From IMG/VR virus record IMGVR_UViG_3300029305_003259, positions 64,432 through 128,431 of that record: a stretch of 64,000 nucleotides of DNA; one strand, written 5' to 3'. Positions 3,001 to 50,483 of the stretch are shown piece after piece; within the stretch, counting starts at the first letter, position 1, and each line of letters begins with the position of its first letter. This DNA is from a virus (lineage: Duplodnaviria; Caudoviricetes). The notes under the pieces were generated by a model that was given only the letters and a program-made list of their open reading frames with translations, did not search any database and was not told where the DNA came from. Made by a program: the position numbers and the translations under genes.

Positions 3001-6000
3001 GGGAAACAGGCAAGGAAACAATTGCAACAAATCTTAATACTAAAGCTGCAATTTTAAATGCTTTAGAGAAAAAAGGAATAGTTGGTGCTGATGCAGAAGC
3101 GATACTTTCTGCTTTTGGGCTATCGGCCGCAAATACTACTCTGACTGGCACGTTTACCATATTAACGGCATCTGTTAAAAAATTATGGGCAGCATTTTTA
3201 GCAAGTCCACTTATGCCCATTGTTGCCGGTCTTGCAGTATTAGGAGCCAGCTTATGGGCAATAGATGCAGCAACCACGTCTTTCAAGGAAGCCAAAGAAC
3301 AATTGGAAGAAACTTCTGAAGAATTAAATAATGTTCAGGAAAACATTAAATCTTTAAATCAAGAACTAGAAACAACAAAGAATCGTATCGATGAATTGTC
3401 TAAAAAAGATGATCTTACTTTCTTGGAAAAGGAAGAGCTCAAAAATCTAAAAACATACAATGCTGAGCTTGACCGTCAAATTGCTCTGGAAGAACAAAGA
3501 AAGAAAATTCTTGAAAGACAACAGATTTCCGATGCTCTTGAAACATTCAAAAAAGATGACTCTTTTAAAAAGATTACTTATTCTGAAACTGATGAAAATG
3601 GCGTTATAACCGGAGTAGTCAATGAGTTGGCCCCAGAAGTAGACCGCAAACTAGAAGACATAAAAGAGGCACAACAAGGTCTAGAAACTGCAAGAGCCGA
3701 ACTTGAGTCTGCAAATGAAAAATATTTATCTAATGATGATAAAGAATCTAAGAAGGCCGTAGAAAAGGCACAAAAGAGCGTTGATGAGTATACGGATATT
3801 ATTAGAGAATCTGAAAATGATATTAATGAAATTTTAGCAGAACGCGCAGAAACGTATGGAAATCTTGAATGGCAATTTGGAGATCCCGATCAATTAACTA
3901 ATGATCAAAAAGAATTAAATGCATTTTTAAAACAAATGTATGATGATTCAGATAGATTTGCTATATCTATGGATAGTACGGGGAAAGCTCTGGAAGCGGC
4001 ATTTTCTCGTGTATCTGGTCAAACTGAATTCAATGATAACTTAAAAGATATTCAAGCAAATGTTGGAATTACAGGCGAGCAACTTCTTGAGATGTGGGAG
4101 AATGCTACCCCTGAAACTGAAGACCCGTATGGTTTACGTGCATTTATTCAGAATCTAATTGACGCTGGAGTTATTGCTGATACTTCTGCTGAATCTATGC
4201 AGAAGGTTGTCGATATGTCCATCATGTTAAGCGATGGAACCAGTGAGATGGAGCGTGCAAACAAGAAACTTGCTCGTTCTCAGAAGAGACTTGAATATTA
4301 TAATCTAGCAAAAAAATTAAATAGTTATACGGATGGAATTGAAGATTTAACCGATGCACAAAAAGATGAGATTTCTCAAATCAGAACCAAAATGAGTGCG
4401 TTGGCCGTAGAGATCGATGCTTATGATATTCTTGGTGCTAAGATTTCCGAAGTCAAACAATCTTTTGAGGAGTTCTCTCAGGCACAAGAGGCCGATACTG
4501 CAAGTGACTTTACCGATGACATTTCAACAATGCTTCAAACAATCGTTGAGGGTTATCAAAGTGCGGAAATGGGCTCTGAAGCATTTAAGTCTGCATTTAC
4601 ATCATTAATTCCAGATAGTGTATATGAAGACATTGATACTCTTCAAGGAAAATATGAAGCTGCTGCAGCATATATTAGAGACACTTTAAGTGATTACTTC
4701 AAGATAGAATATGATGACGATGGCTTAATTAGCAGCATTGAAGTAACCACTAAAAACATTCAGAACTTTATCGAAGATGCCAAGGCCAAGGGCCTAATGA
4801 ATTTCGCCAATGGTGTTTGGCAAGTAAATGAAACCGACTTTGAAACATTTGCTGAGAAGATGGGCATTACTGAGGAAATGCTCGTTGCTCTTGGTGAACA
4901 AATGGATAAAGTTGATGCTGACTGGATAACCGGAGACCTTACCAGCTTCTTTGACTCGTTTGAGATGGGCACTGAAGCAGAAATTTATAAAAATGTTCAG
5001 GCTTTGGCTGCTCTAGATGGTCAACTTATTGATGGCGAAATTACACTTGATGAATATACTGCGGCATACAAAGAATATACGAGTGCAATAGAATCAAATA
5101 CAGATGATGCAATTGCAAATATTCAAAAGTATAATGACGCAACCATAAATGTTGATGATATTACTGCGCAATTAGATGAGGCTCAGAAAAAGTTAAGCGA
5201 ATTAACATCGAATCCAAATGCCGATGAAGCAGAGATACAAATTCAAACAACAGAAGTAGATAATTTAATAACTAAACTAGGCGAGGCAATTCAGGAAAAG
5301 GGTAAACTTACAGCTCCTAGTTTAATTGAAATTCAATTTGCTCAAGATTCGATTGATACACAAATAGCCGGCGTACAGCGGCAACTGATTGATGCGAATA
5401 TTTCCTTCCCGGCAATGATAGACGGAAAATTAAATCTAGAAGAAAATGGCTCAATCATTGAAAAGGATGGTAAATATGTAGTCAATACTGAGCTGGAAGG
5501 TTTGGAAGAATCTGAGCTTGCGTTATTACAAGAATATGCAGATCTTGCGAATACTCAAGGTGTCATTAATGTTTATGTGAAATCTTCCGAAGATACCCAA
5601 AAGAAAGTCGATGATTTAAAGAAAACTGCGGAAGATACTCAAAAAATTCTAGAAAATCTATCCGTTGAAGTTGAAGCTGCTCAAGCAATTTCAACTTTGA
5701 AAGAAATAAAAACATTAGCTGATTCTCTCAAAGATAAAGAAATTAATGTAACAACATATACTGAAACCGTTGATAAAGGTACAAGAAAAGAAACATTTTG
5801 GGAAAAATTATGGCCATTTGCAAAAGGCACTGCTTATTCAGATGGCAACTGGGGAGCTGGAGTAAGTACTAATAAAGCTCTTGTTGGAGAACTAGGCCCA
5901 GAGTTGCGTGTACGTAATGGTAAGTACGAACTTATTGGAGAAAATGGCGCTGAATTTACCGACGTAAGACCTAATGACATAATCTTTAACCATAAGCAAA

Positions 6001-47675: not shown

Positions 47676-48380
47676 TTAATTTTTTCTATAATCTAAACTA
47701 TGATAAGACATGTTATATTTTTTACACCATTTTCTAACTGTATTATCGCTGACTTCATATTGTCGCCCAACCATGCGAAAATTGCCTTGATTGTTAATGA
47801 TACAATTGATTAATTCTTCTTTACTTGGACATTTAGTTGATTGTGAAACTTTTGCACAGCAACTTTTACACAACATTGCATCTTTACTAATTTCTTTTCC
47901 ACAATTAGTGCAATATTTTTTCTTTTGTTCATGAATTGGTCTGTTTTTTCCACCAAAAGTATCTAATTGTCTATCACAATTAGGGCAAATCCATCTTAAA
48001 TTTTCTAATCTATCATCATGGTTGTCTCCATTAATATGATCTAACGTTAATGATAATTCTTTTCCATTCCAAAATGGTTCTTGTCCACATATAGAACATT
48101 TATATTCTGAATACCCACCTTTTAAATACCATTTTCTTAAAGTAGATTGGTCTGCTGTACTATTTAATATAAAGATATTTTCTGGTGTTCTTTTAATCCT
48201 AGGTGTATTCTGAAAGTGATTAATTGAGATTCCATATTCAATTATTTTATTTTTAATTAATGTATAAACATCTCCTGTTTTAGCAGAATACCCAATCTTA
48301 TTTACGACCTCAGCATAAGAATTACTATTTTTAATTATTTCTTCTAATGCATCTTTACTAAAAGTATCAATTAAACTCAT
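47676..48380 (-). mobile_element. Free-standing HNH homing endonuclease
   Basis: YKCSICG...LDHINGD..D.RLENLRWICPNC, extra zinc ribbon, C-terminal HTH; AT-rich insert between two tRNA-Glu genes. Confidence 0.9.
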
Positions 48381-48779: not shown

Positions 48780-48931
48780 ATATAAAAAAGGCCTTTTAAA
48801 GTGATGCCTAGCACTCCACCTCAACGGGCGGATTTTCCTCCGAGTAAGACTTAGCACATACAATCATAGGCTTAATCCTCCTTGTTGGATTTCGGTTTAG
48901 TTTTTTTAGGACATACACCGAAACAAGTCCT

Positions 48932-49094: not shown

Positions 49095-49153
49095 TTAATT
49101 TTGTGTTGTCTTTTAAGTGTTGTTATTATAACACATATTTTTTAGTTTGTCAA
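49095..49153 (-). promoter_or_regulatory. Sigma-A promoter driving the tRNA array
   Basis: Minus strand TTGACA-17-TATAAT, then the CAACACAAAATTAA box just before tRNA-Leu(CAA). Confidence 0.85.
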
Positions 49154-49158
49154 GAGGT

Positions 49159-49607
49159 TTTGCTACCGCCCAGCCCAGAGGTCAACCTATGGATAATGGC
49201 CACTATTCCAAACCTTTAACCTGGGATTTTATCAACCTTTATCGGACTCAACGCTATCCTATAATATTATATAAATCATCAATAATTAGTAGCGGATAGC
49301 ATTATCTACGCCCTCTTTACACCTTTGACCAAAATGATCTTTGAGCGCATCAACCACAGATGCAATAAAAACTTTGAATCTTGAACATTGAACCTTGATT
49401 CTTAAATTTTAATCTTTACAGTAAAATATAATATTATCTAATATTATAAAATCTTTTCAATCTATAAAGATTTTATGTATAGAATACAAGATTAGCAGTC
49501 TTGTTCTAAACCAAGTTTGCGATTACTTTCTTTAAATTTTTAATATCCCTCTAAGTAATCAAAAAGAATAGATAAGCAGTCATTTTAGGTTTTCGGGCGG
49601 TAGCAAA
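49159..49607 (-). ncRNA. Candidate large structured ncRNA (~450 nt) after the DIP1984-like gene
   Basis: Perfect 13-bp terminal inverted repeat TTTGCTACCGCCC/GGGCGGTAGCAAA, several internal hairpins, 7-nt periodic tract, no ORF in the track. Confidence 0.65.
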
Positions 49608-49616
49608 TTAATTCAT

Positions 49617-50270
49617 TTAATACTCAATATCAATTACAGTCAGAGCATTGGAAACACTCAAAGCTGCATCAACTTCAGTATTGAACTCGTCAACCTCATT
49701 AGATAGATCCTCAATAAGCTTAGTAGCATTCAGAGGATCAATCAGATCATAAGTATTATTCTCAATATAAGTCTTACGAAGAGCCTTCATTGCATCGCTG
49801 TCTACGGTCATCTTTGCATCCTTGGGCTGTGCGGCAATAACATCAAGAATATACTTCTCAGCACGCTTCTCAATAGCTTCACCACTATTGCGGTTCAGTT
49901 CCATCTGAGCTCCAGCATTCTGATTAGCTACAGTACGCATATAAGCGGACTTAAATAGCATACCATGGTTCTTCATTTCAATAGCCTCAGCAACAGTGTA
50001 CTCAACGTCTCCAACCTTAACCTTGGTAACAGCATTGGAAAGAACAACTGCACGCTTAATTGCATTGCGACGATTAATTAGATCAGTAACCTTCTGATGA
50101 CAAGACTTCATATGATCCTTAAAATCATTAACAGTCTTGCCCTGAATCTTCTCGTTGGAATGCTTATTAGCAATTACGTAAGTACCTTCCATGATAGCCT
50201 TATTGATACGGCTATCGATTACCTTGAGTTCAGCCAGAGCCTTATGAACAGTCATCTTCTCAGTATGCAT
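49617..50270 (-). CDS. DIP1984/DUF6847-like long coiled-coil protein
   Basis: MTVHKALAELK...SNAVT.V...TVAEAI...EVDAALSVSNALT.I pattern; AGGAGGAG RBS. Confidence 0.7.
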   Translation of the reverse strand: MHTEKMTVHKALAELKVIDSRINKAIMEGTYVIANKHSNEKIQGKTVNDFKDHMKSCHQKVTDLINRRNAIKRAVVLSNAVTKVKVGDVEYTVAEAIEMKNHGMLFKSAYMRTVANQNAGAQMELNRNSGEAIEKRAEKYILDVIAAQPKDAKMTVDSDAMKALRKTYIENNTYDLIDPLNATKLIEDLSNEVDEFNTEVDAALSVSNALTVIDIEY

Positions 50271-50297
50271 AGTTAACTCCTCCTAAATTTTAAACTT

Positions 50298-50372
50298 TGG
50301 TATACCCTGAAAGAATTGAACTCTCACCTCTTGGTTCGTAGCCAAGCGTCTTCTCCGTTCGACTAAGGGTAC
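50298..50372 (-). tRNA. tRNA-Arg(ACG)
   Basis: CTTGG-CT ACG AA-CCAAG, CCA. Confidence 0.88.
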
Positions 50373-50438
50373 ATATTATATTGACACAGAACCTCACTTG
50401 TCAATTTTGCGACCCGACTCACATTGTCGCTTTCCACA

Positions 50439-50483
50439 TTAATTTTGTACCGTAATTATAGCATATTATTTTTACTTTGTCAA
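50439..50483 (-). promoter_or_regulatory. Promoter of the tRNA-Arg / DIP1984-like / ncRNA unit
   Basis: Minus strand TTGACA-17-TATAAT-TACGGTACAAAATTAA. Confidence 0.85.

What the first reader, a model, noticed from the sequence alone, without database searches (positions are those of the whole stretch)
49159..50483. DIP1984-like coiled-coil protein paired with a ~450-nt structured RNA carrying 7-nt periodic repeats: candidate undescribed ribonucleoprotein system
Seen: a separate unit of consensus promoter (50439-50483), tRNA-Arg(ACG), a 217-aa helical protein, and 9 nt after its stop a 449-nt non-coding element. The element is closed by a perfect 13-bp GC-rich stem (49159-49171 with 49595-49607). 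Inside are hairpins (GATTACTT/AAGTAATC, TAGAA-CAAGA/TCTTG-TTCTA, ATAAAATCTTT/AAAGATTTTAT, GCATC/GATGC) and a tract with strict 7-nt period: GTAAAGA TTAAAAT TTAAGAA TCAAGGT TCAATGT TCAAGAT TCAAAGT (49371-49420), with more TCAAAG/TAAAG units further 3'. A fresh promoter for the tRNA array starts just beyond it, so it is not a tRNA leader. Knowledge: the protein pattern matches my recollection of the functionally unassigned DIP1984/DUF6847 family. Inference: an oligomer could bind one heptad per subunit (TRAP-like ring or filament), or this could be a protein-RNA toxin/antitoxin or anti-defence pair. I do not recognise the RNA as a named family.
Basis: partly seen in the sequence, partly recalled or inferred. 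Interest (0 to 1): 0.85.

Follow-up and report, generated by a model that had tools for sequence, protein, structure and literature searches.

The report
Knotted heptad-repeat RNA plus partner protein
The 449 "empty" bases behind a small helical-protein gene in this gut phage's tRNA cluster encode a real, multiply knotted RNA showing seven evenly spaced 7-base units; the same gene-plus-RNA pair recurs in hundreds of phages, including model phage T5, and its function is unknown.

Summary
Window 49159-49607 (minus strand) is a conserved structured RNA.

**RNA structure.** Across 43 non-redundant relatives, 93% of proposed base pairs form, against 69% in shuffled and about 40% in slid controls. 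37 of 43 pairs show compensatory changes. The fold includes the 13-bp closing stem, an H-type pseudoknot and a long-range pseudoknot. Seven 7-nt units (N-U-Y-A-A-R-G) are kept in exact register.

**Catalogue status.** Rfam holds only the first 86 nt, as the orphan motif RAGATH-27. No ROOL or GOLLD match was found.

**Link to the protein.**
- An RNA-only motif scan found the 217-aa gene directly upstream in 100 of 102 viral loci and 4 of 4 bacterial loci.
- All seven distant phages inspected (T5, Bacillus Deep Blue, and Vibrio, Lactococcus, Klebsiella, Erwinia and Pseudomonas phages) have the same RNA in an unannotated gap.
- The protein's own 5'UTR carries 2-5 of the same units next to the ribosome-binding site. 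This points to autoregulation and hence direct binding.

**The protein.** Its fold resembles DIP1984 (3kdq, Z 11.5), but it fails the DIP1984 HMM.

**Best reading (about 0.55).** An undescribed, self-regulating protein-RNA particle linked to tRNA arrays. What it does is unknown.

This scan has reported the same module before on other DNA.

The parts
50455..50483 (-). Promoter of the unit (TTGACA-17-TATAAT, with TG extension)
   Evidence: 12 of 12 consensus matches. This is a consensus match only.
50375..50404 (-). Second perfect promoter-like site directly before tRNA-Arg
Evidence: 12 of 12 matches, 18-nt spacer.
50298..50372 (-). tRNA-Arg(ACG), first gene of the unit
   Evidence: ARAGORN. Rfam tRNA 60.5 bits.
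50279..50300 (-). 5'UTR of the protein gene: two heptad-like units (CCAAAGU UUAAAAU) running into the Shine-Dalgarno AGGAGG. Proposed autoregulatory operator.
   Evidence: Sequence read. Across the family, a weight matrix (PWM) built from the RNA's heptads scores a median 9.1 bits in this gene's UTR. The median is -8.4 bits in 529 control UTRs from the same loci, and 71% of target UTRs exceed the control 95th percentile. In this window alone the score is 8.9 bits, which is background level.
49617..50270 (-). 217-aa helical protein (phrog_1491) with a DIP1984-like fold
   Evidence: ORF. phrog_1491 E 7e-52. No Pfam or NCBIfam family. 2290 50%-identity clusters in public data. AlphaFold2 pLDDT 95.3. 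Best PDB match 3kdq, Z 11.5.
49159..49607 (-). Whole 449-nt structured RNA
   Evidence: Conserved in all 69 + 114 related loci. Covariation. Metatranscriptome contigs of 422-592 nt span 49160-49613.
49595..49607 (-). P1 closing stem, 5' strand (pairs with 49159-49171)
   Evidence: 13/13 complementary. In relatives 99.4% paired, 11 of 13 pairs compensatory, and a conserved G.U pair fixes the strand.
49159..49171 (-). P1 closing stem, 3' strand, preceded by the invariant GGCUG (49171-49175)
49520..49607 (-). Part matching Rfam RAGATH-27 (RF03100): conserved CGAAAACC..AAA leader plus hairpin P3
   Evidence: 36.4 bits, E 0.003, full model 1-86, below the 76.1-bit gathering score. Relatives L041 (91.3 bits) and L205 (77.2 bits) are above it.
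49544..49574 (-). P2 (49567-49574 with 49544-49551). Its 3' strand lies inside the loop of P3 (49554-49560 with 49521-49527), forming an H-type pseudoknot.
   Evidence: P2: 8 of 8 pairs compensatory, 83.7% paired. P3 is the RAGATH-27 model hairpin and varies compensatorily.
49575..49581 (-). Long-range pseudoknot PK3, 5' strand (GACUGCU). Pairs with the P9 loop at 49197-49203.
   Evidence: 7 of 7 pairs compensatory, 94% paired. Own-partner against swapped-partner test: 0 of 2000 permutations as good.
49446..49508 (-). Two variable hairpins (49480-49508 and 49446-49476). This region differs in length and sequence between relatives.
   Evidence: In other phages it holds a tRNA-like domain (27 of 100 RNAs) or an inserted endonuclease gene.
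49368..49421 (-). First heptad block: CUGUAAAG followed by six more 7-nt units (consensus N-U-Y-A-A-R-G), ending UUCAAAG UUUU
   Evidence: One A is invariant every 7 nt across 43 representatives, at positions 197, 204, 211, 218, 225 and 232. Most relatives have seven units in register. This is the best-conserved DNA of the element.
49347..49363 (-). Small hairpin GCAUC/GAUGC between the two repeat blocks. It is lineage-specific.
   Evidence: present in WIN, L002 and L149 only.
49310..49345 (-). Second, looser block of YAAAG units (UCAAAG, UCAAAG, GUAAAG), ending in the P6 5' strand GGGC
   Evidence: In short variants such as L162 this block is five strict heptads.
49241..49309 (-). Optional P6 insertion hairpin (GGGC...GUCC). 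Absent from about half of the relatives.
   Evidence: helix 4; 28 of 43 sequences lack it.
49172..49240 (-). Conserved 3' domain: AAAGGUUGAUAAAAUCC; P7 (49221-49225 with 49174-49178); P8 (49212-49215 with 49179-49182); P9 hairpin (49191-49209)
   Evidence: P7 99.1% paired, P8 86.3%, P9 93.0%, each with compensatory changes. P8 permutation test 4 of 2000.
49125..49153 (-). Next promoter, 6 nt after the RNA, driving tRNA-Leu(CAA) and the rest of the array. Not part of the RNA.
   Evidence: 12 of 12 matches. No terminator-like site follows the RNA.

Best explanation
This is a phage-encoded protein-RNA module.

**What is made.** One transcript carries tRNA-Arg, the 217-aa gene and, 9 nt after its stop codon, a 449-nt RNA. 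The two ends of the RNA fold into a compact knotted core made of P1, the P2/P3 pseudoknot, the PK3 pseudoknot and P7-P9. From this core loops out an A-rich, probably single-stranded array of seven 7-nt units, followed by a second looser block.

**Inferred mechanism.**
- Copies of the helical protein bind these units, roughly one unit per protomer, probably starting on the transcript that encodes them.
- Once the RNA is filled, surplus protein binds the two to five similar units that abut its own Shine-Dalgarno sequence and shuts off its translation.

**Shown here:** the RNA structure, the heptad register, the strict gene-RNA linkage and the units in the 5'UTR.

**Inferred, not shown:** binding, stoichiometry and autoregulation.

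**Function.** What the particle does is unknown. Its constant home in tRNA gene arrays, and the tRNA-shaped branch in some versions, point to tRNA biology.
For: **RNA reality**
- On the alignment of 43 non-redundant relatives, 93.4% of cells pair, against 69% when shuffled and 36-46% when the 3' partners are slid.
- 37 of 43 pairs are compensatory. The covariation score is 0.644 against 0.213.
- PK3: 0 of 2000 permutations match the observed pairing.
- Conserved G.U pairs mean the RNA is read from the ORF's strand.
- RNA-library contigs of 422, 452 and 592 nt from two studies cover the element almost end to end.

**Linkage**
- All 69 protein-found loci carry the RNA.
- An RNA-only motif scan found 114 viral loci. 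Of the 102 with enough upstream flank, 100 have the protein gene immediately upstream, at 31-83% identity.
- The two exceptions have a 471-aa endonuclease-like gene inserted in the RNA, and no partner-gene match was found in the upstream flank held.
- In bacterial genomes, 4 of 4 true RNA hits have the gene and 14 chance hits do not.
- Seven distant phages were inspected: T5, Deep Blue, Pseudomonas SYP, Vibrio Pontus, Lactococcus AM2, Erwinia Deimos-Minion and Klebsiella KpS11. Each has a homologue followed by an unannotated 364-557-nt gap holding the repeat units. Six also show the (G)GCUG end and a closing stem. The stretch fetched for the Erwinia phage stopped before its 3' end.

**Binding hint**
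- The RNA's heptad matrix (PWM) scores a median 9.1 bits in this gene's 5'UTR against -8.4 bits in 529 control UTRs.
- 71% of target UTRs exceed the control 95th percentile (Mann-Whitney p 8e-24; the sequences are not independent).
- The units run into the Shine-Dalgarno sequence, and this is also seen in T5 and KpS11.

**Protein**
- It is a real, confidently folded protein (pLDDT 95.3).
- Its conserved residues cluster in three stretches (K16; the RRxAIKRAxxxSNAxT motif; D201, S207, N208). In the model's secondary structure these flank the beta-strands at one end of the bundle.
Against: - No binding was shown.
- The protein has no known RNA-binding domain. Its only structural relative, DIP1984 (3kdq), has no known function.
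- In this window alone the UTR units score at background level (8.9 bits).
- UTR and RNA units do not co-vary by clade (511 of 5000 permutations), so a third factor could read both.
- The expression evidence is contigs only. It gives no strand, no RNA ends and no levels.
- Tight linkage could also reflect co-transcription, or a chaperone role for an RNA that otherwise acts alone.
Confidence: 0.55

Rival explanations
1. The RNA works on its own, like the ornate ROOL and GOLLD RNAs that self-assemble into RNA-only cages. It would act as a scaffold, cage or ribozyme. The upstream protein would be merely co-transcribed, or would help folding without being part of the working particle.
For: - It is large, multiply knotted and highly conserved.
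- Like ROOL and GOLLD, it sits beside tRNA genes in phages (PMC5737381; PMC12286853, listed).
- RNA-library contigs cover the RNA at higher nominal depth than the ORF, which is a weak hint.
Against: - No Rfam ROOL or GOLLD match even at E <= 10.
- The near-perfect coupling to one protein family across phages of Proteobacteria and Firmicutes is hard to explain without a shared function.
- So is the reuse of the same units on that gene's ribosome-binding site.
Confidence: 0.15
2. The RNA is a decoy or sponge for a host factor or a host defence enzyme that acts on tRNA. The heptads (Y-U-YAA-R-N) and the leading CUGUAAA would imitate anticodon loops, and the protein would only present or protect the RNA.
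For: - The module always sits in tRNA arrays.
- The heptad weight matrix prefers a pyrimidine at position 1, U at position 2 and a purine at position 6. This is the Y32-U33...R37 signature of anticodon loops (the matrix is; the loop signature is textbook knowledge).
- 27 of the 30 RNAs that lack CUGUAAAG carry an embedded tRNA-like domain, and none of the 70 that have CUGUAAAG does. In 11 of the 27, ARAGORN's window centres on an AUA, GUA or AUG triplet (10 called tRNA-Tyr, one tRNA-His).
- tRNA-Leu genes (UAA, CAA or UAG) often follow the RNA.
Against: - The loop resemblance is weak statistically: few constrained positions and seven possible registers.
- There are no closing stems around the units.
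- The embedded-tRNA pattern comes from at most two or three lineages.
- The tRNA-Leu neighbour may simply be inherited gene order.
- No candidate target enzyme was identified.
Confidence: 0.15
3. The element is only a cis-acting 3'UTR of the protein's mRNA. It would act as an exonuclease-resistant knot and regulatory tail that tunes the stability or translation of that one gene.
For: - It starts 9 nt after the stop codon with no promoter in between.
- One RNA-library contig runs from the ORF into the RNA (record 1).
Against: - Parts of the RNA are better conserved than the protein: the heptad tract aligns at 76% identity where the protein is 51% identical.
- A 330-490-nt, triply knotted fold with a strictly phased repeat array is far more than a stabiliser needs.
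Confidence: 0.07
4. It is a protein-RNA toxin-antitoxin pair (type III-like) or an anti-defence pair.
For: Only the general pattern of a protein gene next to a repeat-bearing RNA in a phage.
Against: - In ToxIN-type systems the repeat RNA precedes the toxin, the units are about 36 nt, and the toxin is an endoribonuclease (from knowledge).
- Here the RNA follows the gene, the units are 7 nt inside a large fold, and the protein is a helical bundle.
- The PADLOC library was not scanned.
Confidence: 0.03
5. It is a DNA-level element: iterons of an origin, a partition site or a packaging site.
Against: - Compensatory changes occur in seven helices, including two pseudoknots.
- G.U pairs would be A.C mismatches on the other strand.
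- The element is present in RNA libraries.
- It keeps a fixed orientation and position behind one gene.
Confidence: 0.01

Closest known systems
RAGATH-27 RNA motif (Rfam RF03100; an orphan candidate sRNA; by my recollection from the 2017 survey of 224 candidate RNAs, PMC5737381, whose main text does not name it)
   Same: It is the same RNA. The 86 model positions align to the first 88 nt of the element: the conserved CGAAAAC...AAAC leader and hairpin P3. Relatives L041 and L205 pass Rfam's gathering score.
   Different: - Rfam models 86 nt with one hairpin. The real unit is 280-490 nt.
- The full RNA adds a closing stem, two further pseudoknots, the heptad arrays, a 3' domain and a partner protein.
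- The window copy and the T5, Bacillus, Vibrio and Lactococcus versions fall below or outside the model.
ROOL and GOLLD large ornate RNAs
   Same: Large, intricately folded non-coding RNAs of unknown function, typically beside tRNA genes in phages and prophages (PMC5737381).
   Different: - No sequence or structure match.
- Those RNAs form RNA-only cages and have no dedicated partner gene (PMC12286853 abstract).
- This RNA has a strict partner gene and a phased single-stranded repeat array.
TRAP-trp leader and HutP-hut mRNA (proteins that read phased short repeats in single-stranded RNA)
   Same: It may work like them. Those RNAs carry evenly spaced short motifs, each read by one subunit of an oligomer. 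For HutP the motif is UAG every 7 nt. TRAP also represses translation through repeats placed over ribosome-binding sites (from knowledge).
   Different: - Those proteins are beta-rich rings that regulate host operons.
- Here the protein is an elongated helical bundle.
- The repeats sit in a large knotted RNA rather than an mRNA leader.
- Binding is not shown.
CsrA with CsrB/RsmZ sponge RNAs
   Same: A small protein whose binding motif occurs both on ribosome-binding sites and, many times over, on a dedicated non-coding RNA.
   Different: - The motif (GGA in hairpin loops), the protein fold and the genomic arrangement all differ.
- No wider set of target sites was seen in this window.
DIP1984 family (NCBIfam NF038048; structure 3kdq)
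   Same: It is the best structural match: Foldseek probability 1.0 and E 0.024; VIA-align Z 11.5 over 152 of 153 residues, with the next entry at 7.8. 3kdq was verified as DIP1984 family.
   Different: - No HMM match. hhalign probability is 2.6% over a 15-residue DLIxRRxxxK stretch.
- The phage protein is about 65 residues longer.
- The bacterial DIP1984 gene examined has no heptad RNA behind it.
- The family's function is unknown.

Membership tests
RAGATH-27 (Rfam RF03100) | Covariance-model score at or above the gathering threshold (76.1 bits) | tested here: not met
   The window scores 36.4 bits, E 0.003, over the full model length. Homologous positions in relatives score 91.3 bits (L041) and 77.2 bits (L205). 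The window copy is therefore a divergent homologue that the current model misses.
RAGATH-27 (Rfam RF03100) | Conserved 5' single-stranded leader followed by one hairpin with an A-rich loop | tested here: met
   The leader CGAAAACC..AAA and hairpin GAUUAC/GUAAUC align to model positions 1-86. The hairpin arms vary compensatorily among relatives.
DIP1984 family (NCBIfam NF038048) | HMM score at or above the curated cut-off (70 bits) | tested here: not met
   No hit at E <= 0.1. A search of the whole virus record at E <= 10 finds nothing at this gene. Profile against a true family member gives probability 2.6%.
DIP1984 family (NCBIfam NF038048) | Fold of the family's solved structure, 3kdq | tested here: met
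   Z 11.5, rmsd 6.7, 152 residues aligned, with the next entry at 7.8. Foldseek probability 1.0. For helical bundles a Z below about 13 can be a common arrangement, so this is suggestive rather than proof.
ROOL / GOLLD RNAs | Match to the Rfam covariance models | tested here: not met
   No match at E <= 1 over 5.5 kb or at E <= 10 over the element, nor in nine related loci.
Phased-repeat RNA-binding systems (TRAP, HutP type) | Short motif repeated at a fixed spacing in single-stranded RNA | tested here: met
   Seven units at exactly 7-nt spacing, with one A invariant per unit across 43 representatives.
Phased-repeat RNA-binding systems (TRAP, HutP type) | Oligomeric protein that binds one repeat per subunit | not testable with these tools
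There are no binding data.
Type III toxin-antitoxin (ToxIN type) | Repeat RNA upstream of an endoribonuclease toxin that cuts it into units | tested here: not met
   The RNA lies downstream of the gene. The units are 7 nt inside a 449-nt fold. The protein is a helical bundle with no nuclease family hit.

The most novel reading that the evidence does not exclude
The particle is a tRNA mimic or decoy. The seven units are a tandem display of anticodon-loop look-alikes (Y-U-YAA-R-N, that is, UUR-reading tRNA-Leu, led by a tRNA-Tyr-like CUGUAAA). Some lineages replace the leading motif with a whole tRNA-shaped branch. Phages and mobile tRNA arrays would use the particle to capture, divert or regulate an enzyme that acts on anticodon loops, such as a modification enzyme or a defence anticodon nuclease.
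Probability: 0.1. Interest if true: 0.92.

Novelty: categorically new. Interest (0 to 1): 0.85.

Why it matters
- **A widespread module with no known role.** This gene-plus-RNA module is present in hundreds of phage genomes, spanning Proteobacteria- and Firmicutes-infecting families. 440 T5-like records carry the RNA region unannotated, and model phage T5 is among them.
- **Poorly annotated.** In the T5 st0 record the protein gene itself is replaced by an ORF called on the opposite strand.
- **No catalogued relatives.** Neither the protein nor the RNA resembles any functionally understood family.
- **Directly testable.** Because T5 and E. coli are standard laboratory organisms, the question "what is this particle for?" can be addressed at the bench.
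- **Possible payoff.** The answer may show how phages manage their own tRNA sets, or how they meet host attacks on tRNA.
- **A catalogue correction.** The orphan Rfam entry RAGATH-27 is the first fifth of a much larger RNA.

Tried and rejected
- **Known RNA families:** Rfam at E <= 1 and E <= 10 gave nothing beyond RAGATH-27 and tRNAs.
- **Protein by sequence:** PDB searches with the single sequence and with the profile gave nothing meaningful. Pfam and NCBIfam gave nothing. The 'tail fiber' label of phrog_1491 and of some GenBank records looks like copied annotation with no supporting evidence.
  - Complex prediction.
  - The atlas fold library.
  - The search for related loci with the alignment in genome contigs, which found no conserved stretch to search with.
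- **A pairing AAAC/GUUU** between the 5' leader and the 3' domain is possible. Both sides are too conserved to test (371 of 2000 permutations).
- **Clade-specific matching of UTR units to RNA units:** not significant (511 of 5000).
- **A wider regulon:** apart from the RNA itself, no heptad array in the window rises above shuffled background.
- **Literature:** seven full-text searches (RAGATH-27, RAGATH, DIP1984, T5 ncRNA, tRNA array and others) found no paper on this RNA or protein. The 2017 survey's main text does not discuss RAGATH-27, and its supplements are not held. The DRT9 paper's T5 trigger is gene T5.058, a different gene in the tRNA region.
- **Sequencing runs:** only contigs were available. 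Depth differences and uncovered stretches are not used as evidence. The small word shares in bovine, pig and other gut runs were laid for four RNA runs only.
- **Bacterial DIP1984 gene:** the one examined has no such RNA behind it.
Full report
**1.

On the minus strand the window reads as follows:
- Promoter at 50483-50455, with a second perfect one at 50404-50375.
- tRNA-Arg(ACG) at 50372-50298.
- A 217-aa ORF at 50270-49617.
- Nine spacer bases.
- A 449-nt ORF-free stretch at 49607-49159.
- Six bases later, the next perfect promoter at 49153-49125, which drives tRNA-Leu(CAA) and the rest of the array.

The 13-bp perfect closing stem, the three named hairpins and the period-7 tract are at the stated coordinates. 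The sense strand folds 3.7 sd better than shuffles. The antisense strand does too, so folding energy alone decides nothing.

**2. It is a conserved RNA, and the strand is known**

*Conservation.* A protein-based scan of viral contigs returned 69 loci with homologues at 46-83% identity. Every one carries a closed element of 339-463 nt at the same place, usually followed by a tRNA. DNA similarity survives even where the proteins are 51% identical, and it is strongest over the heptad tract.

*Covariation.* I aligned 43 non-redundant elements (A2) and wrote a structure from comparative reading. The counts are:
- 93.4% of cells pair, against 69.0% when 3' letters are shuffled and 36-46% when partners are slid.
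- 37 of 43 pairs have compensatory changes.
- The covariation score is 0.644 against 0.213.

*Strand.* The closing stem keeps a G.U pair in 31 of 43 sequences, and another position is U.G in 13. These would be mismatches on the other strand, so the RNA is read in the direction of the ORF and the tRNAs.

**3. Anatomy**

- The two ends form P1.
- The invariant leader CGAAAAC..AAAC follows.
- Next come seven bases that pair with the loop of hairpin P9, about 370 nt downstream (PK3). All 7 pairs are compensatory. Examples are UGUAAUCG/CGAUUGCA, UACAACU/AGUUGUA and UAUAGCCAA/UUGGCUAUA. In a test of own partner against swapped partner, 0 of 2000 permutations did as well.
- P2 and P3 interlock as an H-type pseudoknot.
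- A variable region follows.
- Then comes CUGUAAAG and six further 7-nt units. One A is invariant every seven bases across all 43 sequences, and most relatives have seven units in register.
- A second, looser YAAAG block follows, with an optional GGGC/GCCC hairpin.
- Next is the conserved AAAGuUUUAyaAAAUCC.
- The 3' domain consists of P7, P8 and P9.
- The RNA ends with the invariant GGCUG and the P1 3' strand.

The repeat tracts are A-rich and have no conserved complement, so they are probably displayed single-stranded. That last point is inference.

**4. Relation to known RNAs**

Rfam finds only RAGATH-27, an 86-position orphan model.
- It aligns to the first 88 nt here at 36.4 bits, below its 76.1-bit threshold.
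- It aligns to the same place in relatives at 91.3 and 77.2 bits.
- RAGATH-27 is therefore the 5' fifth of this RNA.

ROOL and GOLLD share the phage and tRNA neighbourhood but do not match. I found no paper on RAGATH-27 or on this RNA. Absence from a partial library is not proof.

**5. The protein**

*By sequence.* It has no Pfam or NCBIfam family. It matches phrog_1491, which is labelled 'tail fiber' with no evidence I could find. The family is large, with 2290 clusters at 50% identity.

*By structure.* The AlphaFold2 model is confident (pLDDT 95.3). It is an elongated helical bundle capped by a small sheet made of the N-terminal, central and C-terminal strands.

*Conserved residues.* These are K16, the motif RRxAIKRAxxxSNAxT, and D201, S207 and N208. 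They lie in the stretches that flank those strands, so they probably gather at the capped end.

*DIP1984.*
- The best PDB match is 3kdq (Z 11.5, with the next entry at 7.8).
- I verified that 3kdq belongs to the DIP1984 family. A Flintibacter protein that scores 174.6 bits on NF038048 hits 3kdq at E 3.7e-28.
- The phage protein itself does not match that HMM.

**6. Gene and RNA travel together**

*RNA-first scan.* Starting from the RNA alone, I scanned viral contigs with a 3'-domain motif and got 114 loci.
- 102 had enough upstream sequence, and 100 of these have the homologue immediately upstream, down to 31% identity.
- The two exceptions carry a 471-aa endonuclease-like gene inserted in the RNA's variable region.

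*Bacterial genomes.* The same motif gave 18 hits in one genome per bacterial species.
- Four have heptads and the gene: Flavonifractor, Flintibacter, Pseudobutyrivibrio and a Peptococcaceae MAG.
- The other 14 have neither and serve as a chance control.

*Cultured phages.* A tblastn search of cultured phages found 746 records. I opened seven distant ones: T5_ev219, Bacillus Deep Blue, Pseudomonas vB_PpS_SYP, Vibrio Pontus, Lactococcus AM2, Erwinia Deimos-Minion and Klebsiella KpS11.
- In each, the gene is followed by an unannotated gap of 364-557 nt holding the phased YAAAG-like units.
- Six also show a closing stem and the (G)GCUG end. The leader and pseudoknot are plain in T5 and Vibrio Pontus. 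The stretch I took from the Erwinia phage stopped before its 3' end.
- 440 T5-like records carry the T5 version at 90-100% identity, almost always with no feature annotated.
- The T5 st0 record calls an ORF on the wrong strand over the protein gene.

**7. A clue to mechanism**

- The 5'UTR of the protein gene usually holds two to five of the same units, and the last one merges with the Shine-Dalgarno sequence (..AAAGGAG..).
- The window reads CCAAAGU UUAAAAU UUAGGAGG. T5 and KpS11 show the same layout.
- A weight matrix (PWM) built from the RNA's units scores three consecutive units at a median 9.1 bits in these UTRs. The median is -8.4 bits in 529 other SD-bearing UTRs from the same loci.
- 71% of target UTRs exceed the control 95th percentile. 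The p-value of 8e-24 overstates independence.

This is the classic signature of an RNA-binding protein that represses its own translation by site mimicry. It is why I favour direct binding of the protein to the heptads.

Caveats:
- The window's own UTR score is at background level.
- There is no clade-specific co-variation.
- No other strong array exists in the window.

**8. Expression**

Contigs from metatranscriptomes of two studies cover the element almost end to end. They are 422, 452 and 592 nt long and about 93-95% identical to the window. One runs on into the ORF. Contigs show presence in RNA libraries, not strand, ends or abundance. This is a weak hint of a stable species.

**9. Link to tRNA**

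- The module always sits in tRNA arrays.
- Of 100 distinct RNAs, 70 have CUGUAAAG and no embedded tRNA.
- 27 lack the motif and carry a tRNA-shaped domain in the variable region. In several of these the anticodon loop reads (C/U)(A/G)UAAAG. Three RNAs have neither.
- The unit consensus has a pyrimidine at position 1, U at position 2 and a purine at position 6, as anticodon loops do.
- tRNA-Leu genes often follow the RNA.

Each point is weak or lineage-bound. Together they justify the decoy or mimic idea only as a long shot.

**10. Verdict**

- The RNA is real (confidence above 0.95), and so is its partnership with the gene.
- Binding and autoregulation are inferred (about 0.55).
- The function is unknown.
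- Rival readings: an RNA-only machine, a decoy for a host factor, and a cis-acting 3'UTR. A toxin-antitoxin pair and a DNA iteron array are unlikely.

This scan has already reported the same module on other DNA. I reached the RNA, RAGATH-27 and T5 results before reading those notes, and I took only the UTR lead from them.

Noticed in passing
window 48791-48907 (- strand), between tRNA-Met and tRNA-Ala: A strong RBS precedes a 19-codon ORF (MIVCAKSYSEENPPVEVEC). It ends in a short conserved hairpin-like motif (GUGCUAGGCAUCAC..) just before a tRNA. Near-identical RBS-plus-peptide starts follow the heptad RNA in L003, L007 and L033. The GUGCUGGGCAUCAC..GCUGCCC motif precedes tRNAs in L016, L021, L022 and L037. 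It has no Rfam match.
   Followed up: no
L075:755-2170 and L160:4907-6322: A 471-aa endonuclease-like ORF is inserted inside the variable region of the heptad RNA. The heptad tract and 3' domain remain intact. The region therefore tolerates kilobase insertions.
   Followed up: partly
L157:8489-8562, L177:2237-2326, L163:4497-4569; also L209:2240-2330: tRNA-shaped domains sit inside the heptad RNA, with a canonical T arm and D arm, an AU-rich acceptor and no CCA. ARAGORN calls them Tyr(GUA or AUA), Gly(GCC) or undetermined. In Erwinia phage Deimos-Minion the tRNA-like pieces look circularly permuted.
   Followed up: partly
window 50375-50404 (- strand): A second perfect TTGACA-18-TATAAT promoter lies 50 nt after the first and directly before tRNA-Arg.
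   Followed up: no
L003:527-637: A drum RNA (Rfam RF02958, 72.4 bits, above its threshold) sits in the tRNA array of a related phage.
   Followed up: no
L061:960-1369: A phage-encoded tmRNA (Rfam RF00023, 114.9 bits) lies upstream of the module in a related phage. In that phage an extra small ORF sits between the protein gene and the RNA.
   Followed up: no
L008:5307: ARAGORN calls a tRNA with anticodon CUA (an amber suppressor, labelled tRNA-Pyl) in a related 169-kb phage. This hints at stop-codon recoding in that lineage.
   Followed up: no
L211:844-1641 (T5 st0, AY692264 35159-35956): The T5 st0 record annotates a hypothetical ORF (T5p083) on the strand opposite the conserved homologue of the 217-aa protein. 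This is probably a mis-call.
   Followed up: partly
window 5568-5789 (G000:C1:69999-70220): A weak DIP1984_fam match (15.8 bits, E 1e-3) lies inside a 4213-aa open frame elsewhere in the phage. It is probably a coiled-coil coincidence.
   Followed up: no
window 47676-48380 (- strand): An HNH endonuclease gene (phrog_10822, E 4e-45) is inserted between tRNA genes of the array.
   Followed up: no
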